This document shows, one piece after another, positions 6,333-64,000 of a stretch of DNA of 64,000 nucleotides (position 1 is its first letter; the number at the start of each line of letters is the position of its first letter). The DNA comes from the human T2T-CHM13v2.0 reference genome, Homo sapiens. The notes beneath the pieces are model-generated. The model saw only the letters and a program-made list of their open reading frames with translations, ran no database searches and was not told the DNA's origin. The stretch is taken from the NCBI RefSeq assembly GCF_009914755.1, contig NC_060947.1; one strand, written 5' to 3'. Made by a program: the position numbers and the translations under genes.

Positions 6333-7060
6333 GATTTCCCATGCTCTTTCTACTCTCTACCCTGTATATCCAGGGATGCTCCCTACCCAGGATGCTGTGG
6401 GTTCCCAAACCCCAGGTCAGCCCTGATATGCGGGCCACACCTTCCTCTAGCCTAGGAATGGATCACCCAGGCGAAGAAGTCACTGTGGCATGAACAGATG
6501 GTTCACTTCGAGGAACCGTGGAAGGCGTGTGCAGGTCCTGAGGTAGGACAGAATCAGAGTGTGCAGGGTCTGCAGGTCAGGAGGAGTTGAGGTTGAGTTG
6601 TCACGTGGTGGGAACTCACTGCCACTTACTTTCCTTCTCTCTTCTTGCCTCAGCCTCGGGGATACGACACATGCCCATGATGAGAAGCAGAACGTGGTGA
6701 CCTTTCATGAACACGGGCATGGCTGTGGACCCCTCGTCATCAGGTGCATAGCAAGTGAAAGCAAGTGTTCACAACAGTGAAAAGTTGAGCGTCATTTTTC
6801 TTAGTGTGCCAAGAGTTCGATGTTAGAGTTTACGTTGTACTTTCTTACAGTGTGCCATTCTGTTAGATATTAACATTTTCACTGATCAGCAAGACATACT
6901 TAATGCATATTTCGGTTTGTGTATCCATGCACCTACCTTAGAAAACAAGTATAGTCAGGTATTCTCTCCATAGAACAGCACTACCCTCCTCTCTCCCCAG
7001 ATGTGACTGCTGAGGGGAGGTCTGAGTGTTTAATTTCAGATTTTTTCCTCTGCATTTACA

Positions 7061-25729: not shown

Positions 25730-25880
25730 GAACGTTTGCAAAGGTTTATTAACTGTCAGTGACTGCTACAGGGGAATCGGATGAGGGGAGTACATGCTGA
25801 CCAGGAAACAGAGTGAGGGGAGCTTGACCAGGACGCATGGCAATGGGAAAAGCAGATGGCAGATGCTTATACTGGTACTT

Positions 25881-25929
<49 letters not shown>

Positions 25930-26356
25930 TGTGGTTTGTGTGCGTGTGTGTGTAAATGCAGAGGAAAAAATCTGAAATTAAACACTCAGAACTGCCCTCA
26001 GTAGTCACATCTGGGGAGAGAGGAGGGTAATGCTGTTCCATGCAGAGGTAACCGACAATACTTGTTTTCTAAGGTAGGTGCATGGATACACAAACCAAAA
26101 TATGCATTAAGTATGTCTTGCTCATCAATGAAAATGTTAGTATCTAACAGAATGACACAGTGTAAGAAAATACAACGTAAACGCTAACATCGAACTCTTG
26201 GCACACTAAGAAAAATGACGCTCAACTTTTCACTGTTGTGAACACTTGCTTTCACTTGCTATGCACCTGATGACGAGGGGTCCGCAGCCATGCCCATGTT
26301 CGTGAAAGGTCACCACGTTCTGCTTCTCATCATGGGCATGTGTCGTATCCCTGAGG
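25730..26356 (-). other. SSX2: SSX2 exon 8 (3'UTR); polyA signal AATAAA at 25750-25745
   Basis: Pyrimidine tract then cag|CCTCAGGGATACGAC; contains a (CA)n tract; tttatt on + at 25745-25750; exact 3' end estimated. Confidence 0.85.
25882..25953. repeat. (CA)n microsatellite in SSX2 3'UTR (shorter paralog 7058-7090)
   Basis: Long gt run on +. Confidence 0.95.
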
Positions 26357-26825
26357 CTGAGGCAAGAAGAGAGAAGGAAATAAGTGGCAGTGAGTTCCCA
26401 CCACGTGGCAACGCAATCTCAACTCCTCCTGACCTGCAGACCCTGCACACTCCGATTCTGCCCTATCTCAGGACCTGCACACGCCTTCCACGGTTCCTCG
26501 AAGTGAACCATCTGTTCATGCCACAGTGACTTCCTCGCCTGGGTTATCAATTCCTAGGCTAGAGAAAGGTGTGGCCCGCATATCAGGGCTTACTTGGGGT
26601 TTGGGACCCCACAGCATCCTGGGTAGGGAGGATCCCCGGATATATACAGGGCAGGGAGTAGAAAGAGCATGGGAAATCTCTCATCGTTCAGCCTCAATGC
26701 TGTACAGTAGAAAATTGTAAGAAGGGAATGATTTGGGGAGCAAGTGACAGATGGGATACCAGTATCATAACAGAATAGCACGTCTGCAGGGATGTGGGGG
26801 ATGAGTGGAAGGTTCTCTTACGGAG

Positions 26826-34597
<7,772 letters not shown>

Positions 34598-35925
34598 GGC
34601 ACCGGGAGCAGTCTGACCTGCAAGAGAAATAGCCTGAGTCTTTCCAGCCACAGCAGCTTTGATCCTGTGGAGGGAGAAGTCAGTGAAGGCCGGCCACCCT
34701 CAGTCACCTGGAATCAGCTGCTGCATTTCTCCATCCGGGGCTTATCTGTCCCTGAGTAAGGATATGGGGAGAAATCAGATGAAAACAGGGAACCAGGGGT
34801 CTCTGGGAGAAGTATTGATAGGGAATGACAGGTTTCCTATGGGCAAAGCAGCCTTGAGTCTTTGGGAGGGGGTTGGCTAATGTTGTTAGTAGTTTCCCTG
34901 GAGCTAGGCTTACCCTGAAAGATGTACGGACCCTTTTTGGGGAGGCAGGGACATGACTGTGTAATTTTATTCAGTGGGGGCATGCTGACACCCCCACTCA
35001 ATAAATAAAGGAAGGGAAGTTAGTCCCAGAGATAACATGGTCTCTTTGGCGATGGATCTGATCAGGCAGAGGGATGGGGGGTTCTGTTCTGTTGAAGAGA
35101 AATGAGCATCGCTAATATGAACGTGTTCAGAGGCTATTACTCGGTGATTTGTAAATTATTAGAAGGAAGAGAGCTAGAATTTCTGAGACTACAAGAGCCC
35201 GCCATCACTTAGAGAGAATGTGGGGCATTTCAAGATGCAGCAATCAGCCAGGCGCCGTGGCTCACGCCTGTAATCCCAGCACTTTGGGAGGCCGAGGCGT
35301 GCAGGTCGCTTGAGCCCAGGAGGTCGAGACCCGGCTGGGAAACACAGCAAAACCCCCGTCTACAAAATACACAAAAAGTTAGCTGGGGTTGGTGGAGCAG
35401 GCCTGTACCATCCCAGCACTTTGGAAGGCCAAGGTGGGCGGATCGCCTTAGCCCAGGAGCTTGAGACCAGGCTCGCAAACGTAGCAAAACCATCTCTACT
35501 AAAAAAAACAAACAAAATTTAGCAGAAGCGGGGTGGTGCGCGCCTGTAGCCCCAAGGCCTAGGCGAGAGGCTCACTTGAGCCCAGGAGGAAAGATTTGAG
35601 TGAGCTTTTTTGGTTTTTGTTTTTTCAGACAGGGTCTCGCTCTGTTGCCCAGTCGGGAGTGCACTGGCGTGATCATGGCTCACTGCAACCTCCGCCTCTT
35701 AGGTTCAGGCGATCCACCAGCTGTGGCTTCCAAAAGTGCAGGGATTACAAGTGTAAGCCACCACGCCCGGCCCAAATTTCTTAAGTTACTACAGAGTTCC
35801 TAGGAAAAATCCCGTACCTGAAAAAGTTAGAAACTGACAGGAAAGATTCGAGATGGCGGCCTGCCTCATATACACTCCTTATTAAAACTAGATAGCAAAT
35901 GCACCGCGGAGGAGGGGAGGGGTAG

Positions 35926-36058
35926 GAAGAATGGAAAAAGAAAATCGGCGTATGCTTACTCTGATTTTGGAAGAATCCAAAGAGAAAATCAGACCGTGCG
36001 TACTCTGAGTATGGAAGAATCGAAAGAGAGAGAAAGTCAGAGCATGCGTACTCTGAAC
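35926..36058. repeat. Three imperfect tandem copies of a ~44-46 bp unit forming SSX2 exon 1 and its donor
   Basis: gaagaatggaaaaagaaaatcggcgtatgcttactctga / gaagaatccaaagagaaaatcagaccgtgcgtactctga / gaagaatcgaaagagagagaaagtcagagcatgcgtactctga. Confidence 0.85.
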
Positions 36059-36060
36059 TT
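35960..36060 (-). other. SSX2: SSX2 exon 1 (non-coding); 5' boundary approximate
   Basis: Donor ATCAGA|gtaagc at 35960/35959; joins exon 2 as ...CCAAAATCAGA-GTCAGACTG... Confidence 0.75.
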
Positions 36061-36300
36061 AAAGTAGCCAATCCCAGGGGATGCTTTAGGCGGGAAAATT
36101 AGAGTCTCCACCCCCACTTTGAGAAGGTTCCGTCCCTGGAGCCGGGACTGATAGAAGCCACATCCGCTTCGCTTGTTCCGCCTACTGTTCTGACTTCTAA
36201 TTGGCCAGATGGAGTTCACTAACTGCCCTGATTGGTCCATCATCCTTGGGCAGTGACATAGCAGAATAATGTCTCCTCCTCCAGCCACACTTTGTTGCCA
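36060..36300 (-). promoter_or_regulatory. SSX2 promoter: E2F-type site (GGCGGGAAAA 36089-36098), CCAAT boxes at 36068-36072, 36200-36204, 36231-36235; CpG-containing, no obvious TATA
   Basis: Motifs read directly; two same-orientation CCAAT boxes lie 31 bp apart; the region is immediately upstream of exon 1. Confidence 0.6.
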
Positions 36301-52104: not shown

Positions 52105-58003
<5,899 letters not shown>

Positions 58004-58032
<29 letters not shown>

Positions 58033-58242
58033 TGTTTTCAAGGATCAATTCTTAACAGTAGAGGAAAATAGGAAAGCGTGTCAGTGGTCCACCAGAAATA
58101 TTGAGGCATTCCTGGGAGATAGAGTAGATGGGGTCAGACTGATAGAGAAACCCAAGGAGACAAGACCACAGCTCAAATCACTGTAGGCGAGAGATGCTGT
58201 TTGTTTTTTGAGACGGAGACTTACTCTGTCGCCCAGGCTGAG
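58004..58242. other. 239-bp palindrome spacer
   Basis: L1 A-rich tail (58004-58032), a paralog of 22175-22400, and the truncated start of an antisense Alu ending cccaggctgag. Confidence 0.93.

Positions 58243-64000
<5,758 letters not shown>

What the first reader, a model, noticed from the sequence alone, without database searches (positions are those of the whole stretch)
26270..26356. SSX 3'UTR exon begins with what looks like a fossil PRDM9/PRDM7 PR/SET-domain exon
Seen: right after the exon-8 acceptor, SSX2 reads cctcag GGATACGACACATGCCCATGATGAGAAGCAGAACGTGGTGACCTTTCACGAACATGGGCA-TGGCTGCGGACCCCTCGTC, which translates HAHDEKQNVVTFHEHGHGCGPLV. The paralog is at 6659-6740 (ORF 6559..6780). 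Established: SSX shares its KRAB-like and SSXRD domains with PRDM9/PRDM7, whose SET motif reads [21 protein letters not shown]...RPGCELLV. From memory the PRDM9 exon starts cag GTATGTGAACTGTGCCCGGGATGATGAAGAGCAGAACCTGGTGGCCTTCCAGTACCACAGGCA...GGCTGTGAACTGCTGGTC, which aligns at nucleotide level with one 3-nt gap and one ~33-nt gap. Inference: SSX arose from a duplicated PRDM9-like gene that still included the methyltransferase exons, gained a stop in exon 7, and kept the old SET-exon acceptor as its terminal UTR exon. I do not know of this being described.
Basis: partly seen in the sequence, partly recalled or inferred. Interest (0 to 1): 0.85.

Follow-up and report, generated by a model that had tools for sequence, protein, structure and literature searches.

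The report
PRDM9 methyltransferase exon relic in SSX2
The first 130-odd bases of the untranslated last exon of the cancer-testis gene SSX2 are a decayed copy of the last methyltransferase-domain exon of the recombination gene PRDM9, which shows directly that SSX genes began as a partial genomic copy of PRDM9.

Summary
A 221-nt query around the SSX2 exon-8 acceptor found, in the whole 3.1-Gb genome, only SSX copies and one other place (E 4e-6). That place is an exon whose translation is 64/64 identical to solved PRDM9 structures. The reverse search found only PRDM9, PRDM7 and SSX copies. Dinucleotide shuffles never reached the observed score, either for the exon part or for the 80 nt of intron before it (0 of 2000 each).

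SSX2 is collinear with PRDM9 genomic DNA from the KRAB-A exon to this exon. About 1.7 kb of PRDM9, holding two PR/SET exons, has no counterpart in SSX2. The SSX stop TAA lies on a PRDM9 Tyr codon. The relic has gaps of 3, 33, 33 and 1 nt, its old donor GT reads TT, and its mismatches are even over codon positions. So it is a non-coding fossil whose branch-site and pyrimidine-tract region still serves splicing. The acceptor in use lies 6 nt upstream of the PRDM9-homologous AG.

Descent of SSX from PRDM9 is already proposed in print. I found no description of this relic. Interest is moderate.

The parts
26357..26400 (-). Last 44 nt of SSX2 intron 7, homologous to the 3' end of the PRDM9 intron before its penultimate exon. 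It holds 15 consecutive identical bases (26400-26386) that include a branch-site-like CTCAC (A at 26391, 35 nt before the exon), a pyrimidine tract, and the acceptor AG in use (26358-26357).
   Evidence: 17/18 identical at 26400-26383; 0 of 2000 shuffles for the upstream intron alone. The branch-site role is inferred, not tested.
26351..26356 (-). First 6 nt of annotated exon 8 (CCTCAG). Its last two bases are the AG that aligns with the PRDM9 acceptor, which is now inside the exon.
   Evidence: Alignment. The hub annotation has exon 8 starting at 26356. The chr6 processed copy L020 joins exon 7 directly to these 6 nt. 6 of 19 chrX copies keep this AG and 13 do not.
26225..26350 (-). Fossil of the penultimate PRDM9 exon (the last PR/SET exon), 194 nt in PRDM9 and 126 nt here. 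It has gaps of 3, 33, 33 and 1 nt. Identity is 63 of 87 in the first four ungapped blocks.
   Evidence: Shuffle tests. Mismatches per codon position are 8/6/10 of 29 sites each.
26211..26224 (-). Position of the old PRDM9 donor and the first bases of the old intron. GT now reads TT, so the exon runs on.
   Evidence: Alignments. TT is present in 19 of 20 copies matched by the anchor. Homology is not detectable beyond this point (1273 of 2000 shuffles; 463 of 500).
25730..26210 (-). Rest of the terminal exon. It is SSX-specific 3'UTR with a (CA)n run and AATAAA at 25750-25745, and has no detectable PRDM9 counterpart.
   Evidence: sequence; the genome-wide search finds only SSX copies and the chr6 retrocopy..
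26401..26659 (-). Middle of intron 7, with no significant match to PRDM9. It sits where about 1.7 kb of PRDM9 (L024 5265-6999), with exons of 272 and 68 nt, is missing.
   Evidence: 61 of 300 shuffles reach the score. (738 of 1000 and 474 of 1000). PRDM9 exon positions.
26660..26747 (-). Block in the 5' part of intron 7, homologous to the PRDM9 intron just after its SSXRD exon.
   Evidence: 69% over 88 nt. (0 of 300 shuffles).
26822..26926 (-). SSX2 exon 7 (SSXRD), homologous to the PRDM9 SSXRD exon with both splice sites aligned. The stop TAA at 26828-26826 lies on a PRDM9 TAC codon.
   Evidence: (tblastn E 0.001). (TAA in 17 of 17 copies).
33943..34091 (-). SSX2 exon 3 (KRAB-A) plus 34 nt of the following intron. 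This is the 5' limit of detectable PRDM9 homology.
   Evidence: 74.5% over 149 nt, E 2e-26. (donor aligned). (upstream region: 44 of 500 shuffles, not significant).
6609..6785 (+). The same intron end and fossil exon in the pseudogene SSX15P.
   Evidence: (6609-6719 against chr5 23632000-23632110, 71%, E 7e-9). (frame and ORF end at 6780).

Best explanation
SSX2's terminal, untranslated exon 8 begins with a relic of the penultimate exon of PRDM9, the exon that encodes the last third of the PR/SET methyltransferase core.

Shown. The SSX ancestor was a DNA-level partial duplicate of PRDM9, running at least from the KRAB-A exon to this exon. Its introns are still alignable. The two PRDM9 exons between the SSXRD exon and this one (272 + 68 nt, holding the pre-SET region and the first two thirds of PR/SET) have no detectable counterpart. 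A Tyr codon near the end of the SSXRD exon reads TAA. The relic exon's donor GT reads TT.

Inferred. With its donor gone, transcripts run through the old exon into SSX-specific sequence and end at an AATAAA about 480 nt further on. The old exon thereby became the start of a 3'UTR. The part still working is the 3' splice-site region inherited from PRDM9: a branch-site-like CTCAC within a 15-nt stretch identical in both genes, followed by the pyrimidine tract. A new AG 6 nt upstream has taken over as acceptor. Because the stop lies 5 nt before the last exon junction, the 3'UTR intron should not trigger nonsense-mediated decay (general rule, not tested).

The relic's protein-coding content is dead and decays about as fast as intron.
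For: Genome-wide searches are reciprocal and exclusive. SSX2 to genome gave 19 chrX SSX copies, 1 chr6 retrocopy and one other hit at chr5 23632000-23632098, E 4.2e-6. That chr5 exon is 64/64 identical to PRDM9 chains 6nm4_A and 4ijd_A. PRDM9 exon to genome at E<=10 gave itself, PRDM7 in 2 pieces and 8 SSX copies, and nothing else.

Shuffle tests gave 0/2000 for the exon part, 0/2000 for the upstream intron and 1/2000 for the exon remainder.

Collinearity: 11 unique HSPs in SSX2, all in gene orientation, 10 collinear, plus 4 more in SSX15P. The reversed-sequence control gave 1 unique HSP.

Splice sites of exons 3-7 are aligned, and TAA sits on TAC.

The missing PRDM9 exons were located. The intron-7 5' block gave 0/300 shuffles.

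The relic is the penultimate exon, because the rest of PRDM9 is one ORF in one last exon.

Decay: gaps of 3, 33, 33 and 1 nt, and mismatches of 8/6/10 over the three codon positions. Pfam gave 0 families. The old donor reads TT in 19 of 20 copies.

Acceptor use: the chr6 processed copy joins exon 7 to the 6 nt upstream of the PRDM9-homologous AG.
Against: At protein level the relic is hardly detectable. phmmer against PDB at E<=10 returned no PRDM9. tblastn of the PRDM9 exon ORF against the window gave E 0.19 for SSX2 and 0.003 for SSX15P.

Gap placement in the middle of the exon is ambiguous. Another scoring scheme gave different gaps.

No homology was detected downstream of the old donor or upstream of the KRAB-A exon. 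The true ends of the duplicated segment are therefore unknown.

The relic varies somewhat less among 13 non-redundant SSX copies than its neighbours do: 24/146 variable columns against 180/685, Fisher p 0.011. This fits pure neutral decay imperfectly, although the test ignores shared ancestry and gene conversion.

Only the human genome could be examined.

The branch-site and NMD statements are inference.
Confidence: 0.93

Rival explanations
1. The relic is not merely a fossil. The start of exon 8 is under present-day constraint in SSX genes as a cis-element, for example exonic splicing enhancers next to the 3' splice site or a 3'UTR regulatory site.
For: Among 13 non-redundant, well-aligned chrX copies the relic has 24/146 variable columns (pi 0.040). 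That is like coding exon 7 (20/105, pi 0.037) and the branch-site/acceptor stretch (7/44). The middle of intron 7 plus the rest of the UTR has 180/685. Fisher p 0.011.
Against: The effect is about two-fold on few sites. The test treats columns as independent and ignores shared ancestry and gene conversion among paralogs. My first impression of a much larger low-diversity block was largely an artefact of three truncated copies. Identity to PRDM9 in the relic (72%) is no higher than in alignable intron (p 0.277).
Confidence: 0.15
2. The proto-SSX gene translated the relic for a time as a shortened SET remnant, or the relic is still translated in some isoform or by readthrough.
For: The frame is open for 62 codons. 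In the most parsimonious alignment the first three gaps are multiples of three: 3, 33 and 33 nt.
Against: The SSX reading frame carried across the exon 7/8 junction is not the SET-like frame (read from the sequence and the ORF list). A 1-nt gap breaks the PRDM9 frame after the I-R-C residues. Mismatches are even over codon positions, 8/6/10. Pfam finds no domain. The two 33-nt gaps remove the stretches that, by recalled numbering, hold the catalytic tyrosines. The importance of Tyr357 is stated in the passage of PMC6116924 seen. Loss of the two upstream exons shifts the frame. The gap placement is ambiguous.
Confidence: 0.03
3. The similarity is chance or a shared repeat. Alternatively, a PRDM9 fragment was inserted later, by retrocopy or gene conversion, into an SSX gene of separate origin.
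For: Protein-level searches alone would not have found it.
Against: Shuffle tests gave 0/2000. The genome-wide hits are reciprocal and exclusive, so it is not a repeat family. The homology includes intron sequence upstream of the exon, which excludes an mRNA-derived insertion. The relic lies in collinear order with five other homologous exons and several intron blocks.
Confidence: 0.02

Closest known systems
Human PRDM9, penultimate exon (chr5 23632048-23632241 in this assembly). By my count of collinear exons this is exon 10 of 11; the two exons upstream of KRAB-A are recalled, not seen.
   Same: It is homologous at nucleotide level over the whole exon plus about 45 nt of the preceding intron. 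The splice-acceptor region lines up to within 6 nt. It holds the same place in the order of exons after the SSXRD exon.
   Different: In PRDM9 the exon is 194 nt, coding and internal. It encodes the C-terminal part of the PR/SET core (64/64 identical to PDB chains). In SSX2 it is 126 nt with four gaps, untranslated and out of frame with the SSX ORF. Its donor is destroyed and it is fused to about 480 nt of unrelated 3'UTR.
PRDM7 (chr16), the primate-specific duplicate of PRDM9. The primate-specific origin is stated in the passage of PMC6116924 seen.
   Same: It is another partial or derived copy of PRDM9 that keeps this exon, at 98-99% identity to PRDM9.
   Different: PRDM7 is recent and keeps the exon as coding sequence, with an internal tandem duplication (two overlapping matches). 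The SSX relic is old (intron K2P 0.35) and non-coding. SSX also exists in mouse (passage of PMC3579818), so it predates PRDM7.
[quoted passage not shown]
   Same: The conclusion about ancestry is the same.
   Different: That argument rests on protein domain order. The passages I read mention no SET-domain remnant, no intron homology and no origin for the stop codon. Here the evidence is genomic: collinear introns, aligned splice sites, a relic SET exon and the TAC-to-TAA position.

Membership tests
Paralogous copy of the PRDM9 penultimate exon (homology by DNA duplication) | Nucleotide similarity above chance | tested here: met
   0 of 2000 dinucleotide shuffles reach the score, z 10.7. Genome-wide E 4.2e-6.
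Paralogous copy of the PRDM9 penultimate exon (homology by DNA duplication) | Reciprocal, exclusive best match in the genome | tested here: met
   the only hit outside SSX is in PRDM9; at E<=10 the PRDM9 exon finds only itself, PRDM7 and 8 SSX copies.
Paralogous copy of the PRDM9 penultimate exon (homology by DNA duplication) | Flanking intron is also homologous, and the exon boundary is aligned | tested here: met
   The upstream intron gave 0 of 2000 shuffles, with 15 consecutive identical bases. The homologous AG is at 26352-26351 and the AG in use is 6 nt upstream. The downstream side aligns for only about 12-14 nt and is not significant.
Paralogous copy of the PRDM9 penultimate exon (homology by DNA duplication) | Collinear with the rest of the parent gene | tested here: met
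   10 of 11 unique HSPs are collinear, against 1 unique HSP in the reversed control. Splice sites of exons 3-7 are aligned.
Functional PR/SET methyltransferase domain (PRDM family) | Recognisable domain in an intact frame joined to the gene's ORF | tested here: not met
   Pfam gave 0 families at E<=10. PDB phmmer returned no PRDM chain. The relic lies after the stop codon and out of frame with it. A 1-nt gap breaks the frame. The two upstream SET exons are absent.
Functional PR/SET methyltransferase domain (PRDM family) | Coding-type substitution pattern (excess change at third codon positions) | tested here: not met
   Mismatches are 8/6/10 at codon positions 1/2/3, with 29 sites each.
Terminal 3'UTR exon in use by SSX transcripts | Spliced to exon 7 in mature mRNA, and followed by a poly(A) signal | tested here: met
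   The hub annotation (NM_175698.4) says so. The chr6 processed retrocopy L020 shows the exon 7/exon 8 junction without an intron. AATAAA lies 15-20 nt before the annotated end. No RNA data were available here.

The most novel reading that the evidence does not exclude
The relic SET exon and the collinear introns are an undescribed 'smoking gun' for the birth of the SSX cancer-testis family by partial genomic duplication of PRDM9. In addition, the relic is not inert. Its PRDM9-derived splice region and first ~130 nt would be kept under constraint in SSX genes as a splicing or 3'UTR element, so a piece of a methyltransferase exon would have been recruited to a non-coding role.
Probability: 0.15. 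Interest if true: 0.6.

Novelty: new member of a known kind. Interest (0 to 1): 0.5.

Why it matters
SSX genes are the fusion partners in synovial sarcoma and are cancer-testis antigens. PRDM9 positions meiotic recombination. In the passages I read, their kinship is argued from two shared protein domains. The relic exon, the aligned splice sites and the alignable introns turn that argument into direct genomic evidence.

They also give a concrete path from a KRAB-SSXRD-SET-zinc-finger gene to a KRAB-SSXRD-only gene:
- loss of about 1.7 kb with two exons, which by itself shifts the frame into an early stop;
- a Tyr-to-stop change;
- loss of a donor site, which turned an internal coding exon into the start of a 3'UTR.

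The relic is a marker that can be traced in other mammals to date the event and to order these steps. It does not change what is thought about SSX or PRDM9 function.

Tried and rejected
(1) Protein-level detection. phmmer of the 39-aa translation against PDB at E<=10 gave one unrelated ribonuclease and no PRDM9. Pfam gave nothing. The signal is in the DNA.

(2) Remnants of the two missing PRDM9 exons. tblastn of their ORFs against the whole window gave best E of 0.3-0.44. One hit lay in the collinear slot of SSX15P (6342-6494), but DNA alignment with shuffles did not support it (474 of 1000 for SSX15P, 738 of 1000 for SSX2). The middle of intron 7 against the missing 1.7 kb gave 61 of 300. An alignment with near-free gap extension over-fitted this region and I disregarded it there.

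(3) Extension of homology:
- downstream of the old donor: 1273 of 2000;
- rest of exon 8 against the whole last PRDM9 intron: 463 of 500;
- 1 kb past the poly(A) site: 38 of 200;
- upstream of the KRAB-A exon: 44 of 500.
None is significant.

(4) A striking low-diversity block among the 19 paralogs shrank to a two-fold effect. Three truncated or misaligned copies (L003, L016, L018) and one of each identical pair (L001, L005, L010) were dropped before that recount.

(5) The MAFFT pairwise alignment is unreliable past column ~150. I used local alignments instead.

Birtle & Ponting 2006 is not held.

Full report
**What is in the sequence**

On the minus strand, SSX2 intron 7 ends with a pyrimidine tract and two AGs 6 nt apart. 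The annotated exon 8 starts at 26356, after the upstream AG. The frame from 26349 gives the quoted peptide and is open for 62 codons from stop to stop. SSX15P carries the same stretch at about 6654-6785, and the ORF ending at 6780 is there.

**Is it like PRDM9, and beyond chance?**

I searched the window's own 3.1-Gb genome with 221 nt around the acceptor. The search returned 19 chrX SSX copies, one processed copy on chr6 and exactly one other place: chr5 23632000-23632098, 73% identity, E 4.2e-6. The match starts 44 nt before the exon. The chr5 sequence is an exon flanked by AG and GT. Its 64-residue translation is identical to PRDM9 chains 6nm4_A and 4ijd_A.

The reverse search used this exon with its flanks at E<=10. 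It found itself, PRDM7 on chr16 and 8 SSX copies, and nothing else.

Local alignment against dinucleotide-preserving shuffles gave:
- SSX2 26350-26225 against the 194-nt exon: 0 of 2000 reach the score (z 10.7).
- The 80 nt of intron upstream, on its own: 0 of 2000 (z 11.2).
- The second half of the exon, on its own: 1 of 2000.

At protein level the signal is faint. There was no PRDM9 among PDB hits at E<=10 and no Pfam family. Pairwise BLASTP gave 7/12 identities, E 3e-4.

**Anatomy of the relic**

In the most parsimonious alignment the first four blocks are 63 of 87 identical. They are separated by gaps of 3, 33 and 33 nt. A 1-nt gap then breaks the PRDM9 frame, and similarity continues to the old donor. 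Another scoring scheme places the middle gaps differently, so their exact positions are uncertain.

Mismatches fall 8/6/10 on codon positions 1/2/3. This shows no coding-type pattern.

The old donor GT reads TT in SSX2 and in 19 of the 20 copies matched by the anchor. Beyond about 26211 no similarity to PRDM9 is detectable (1273 of 2000; 463 of 500). The remaining 480 nt of the exon match only SSX copies genome-wide.

By recalled residue numbering, the two 33-nt gaps remove the stretches holding the catalytic tyrosines. The passage of PMC6116924 seen states that Tyr357 is required for activity.

**The splice region**

Fifteen consecutive bases (26400-26386) are identical in SSX2 and PRDM9, and 17 of 18 at 26400-26383. 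They contain CTCAC, which fits the branch-site consensus, with its A 35 nt before the exon. The branch-site role is my inference.

The AG that aligns with the PRDM9 acceptor is the downstream one. The upstream AG is absent from PRDM9 at that position. The chr6 processed copy joins exon 7 to the 6 nt after the upstream AG, so that AG is the one used. The downstream, PRDM9-homologous AG is kept in 6 of 19 chrX copies and lost in 13.

**The whole gene is collinear with PRDM9**

I ran sensitive blastn of the window against 40 kb of chr5 and kept only hits unique on both sides, which sets aside the many Alu matches. This gave 11 HSPs at E<=1e-3 inside SSX2. All are in the gene's orientation and 10 are in collinear order, from the KRAB-A exon (34091-33943, 74.5%, E 2e-26) to the relic. 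SSX15P added 4 more. Six further unique rows lie at 56445-59801, in stretches the hub lists as masked repeats, and are unrelated to SSX. A reversed-sequence control gave 1 unique HSP.

Exon-by-exon alignment shows the acceptors and donors of SSX2 exons 3-7 lined up with PRDM9 exons. Exons 1 and 2 gave only weak matches (scores 13 and 12.5).

The SSX stop TAA (26828-26826) lies on a PRDM9 TAC codon, 4 nt before the shared donor. TAA is present in 17 of 17 chrX copies in which the end of exon 7 was found. Two further copies lack it at the expected place.

After its SSXRD exon, PRDM9 has exons of 272 and 68 nt and then the relic's parent exon. Everything after that is one ORF in one last exon. 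In SSX2 the intron after exon 7 matches the PRDM9 intron for a block at 26747-26660 (0 of 300 shuffles). After that, 259 nt have no significant match (61 of 300), where PRDM9 has about 1.7 kb with those two exons. A direct junction of the PRDM9 SSXRD exon to the parent exon reads into a stop at the third codon. So either the deletion or the TAC-to-TAA change could have truncated the protein first.

**Age**

Across 952 aligned intron sites the mismatch fraction is 0.277 (K2P 0.35). Across 275 exon sites it is 0.302. With assumed neutral rates of 1.0-2.2e-9 per site per year (general knowledge), this gives roughly 80-175 million years. The figure is biased low, because only blocks that are still alignable count. 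It fits the statement in PMC8835667 (Discussion passage) that SSX is confined to mammals. It also fits the existence of a mouse Ssx cluster (PMC3579818 passage).

**Is the relic constrained today?**

A sliding-window scan of 19 copies suggested a large low-diversity block. Much of that came from three truncated copies with unrelated flanks. I dropped those three and one of each identical pair, which left 13 copies. With these the relic has 24 of 146 variable columns, against 180 of 685 in the middle of intron 7 plus the rest of the UTR (Fisher p 0.011). That is similar to coding exon 7, at 20 of 105. This is a modest hint and is not corrected for shared ancestry or gene conversion.

**Literature**

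I ran five full-text searches. I read passages only, not whole papers, in PMC8835667, PMC6116924, PMC2865497, PMC3579818, PMC5519329, PMC2779102, PMC5688218, PMC10380595 and two bioRxiv preprints.

These passages describe the shared KRAB-related and SSXRD domains. [quoted passage not shown] None mentions a SET-exon remnant, intron homology or the origin of the stop. Birtle & Ponting 2006 is not held, and supplements were not consulted. So 'not described' means not found in these searches.

**Verdict**

- The acceptor in use is 6 nt upstream of the inherited AG.
- Two SET exons are missing through a ~1.7-kb loss.
- The order of that loss and the stop gain is open.

The relic is a new, well-supported piece of evidence for an ancestry that was already proposed. 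It is a tidy evolutionary result of moderate interest.

Noticed in passing
L003, L004, L009, L014 (chrX SSX copies at 47.53-47.85 Mb of G000:C23): In 4 of the 17 chrX copies where the end of exon 7 was found, the exon-7 donor reads AT instead of GT. These copies cannot splice exon 7 to exon 8 the way SSX2 does. They may be pseudogenes or may use another 3' end.
   Followed up: no
L016 (G000:C23:52074547-52074766) and L018 (G000:C23:51888420-51888640): These copies carry the relic and the 3'UTR but no recognisable exon 7 at the expected distance, and their flanks do not align with the other copies. They look like truncated SSX fragments. L016 lies in no gene of the hub's table.
   Followed up: partly
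L020 (G000:C6:119774765-119775351): This is a processed SSX retrocopy on chr6, with exon 7 joined to exon 8 without an intron. It is 90% identical to SSX2 over the relic but only 74% over the rest of the 3'UTR.
   Followed up: partly
L027/L028 (G000:C16:96146566-96146952): PRDM7 matches the PRDM9 exon in two overlapping pieces (query 23-221 and 131-321). This indicates a tandem duplication of about 90 nt inside this exon in PRDM7.
   Followed up: no
window 25730-36075 against chr5 23617192-23632256: SSX2 coding exons are no better conserved against PRDM9 than the alignable intron blocks (mismatch fraction 0.302 against 0.277). This is in line with fast protein evolution in SSX.
   Followed up: partly
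window 56445-59801: Two inverted copies of a long repeat also match two places inside the PRDM9 locus (chr5 23638489-23639815 and 23621683-23623794) at 67-70% identity. This is a shared interspersed repeat, unrelated to the SSX/PRDM9 homology.
   Followed up: no
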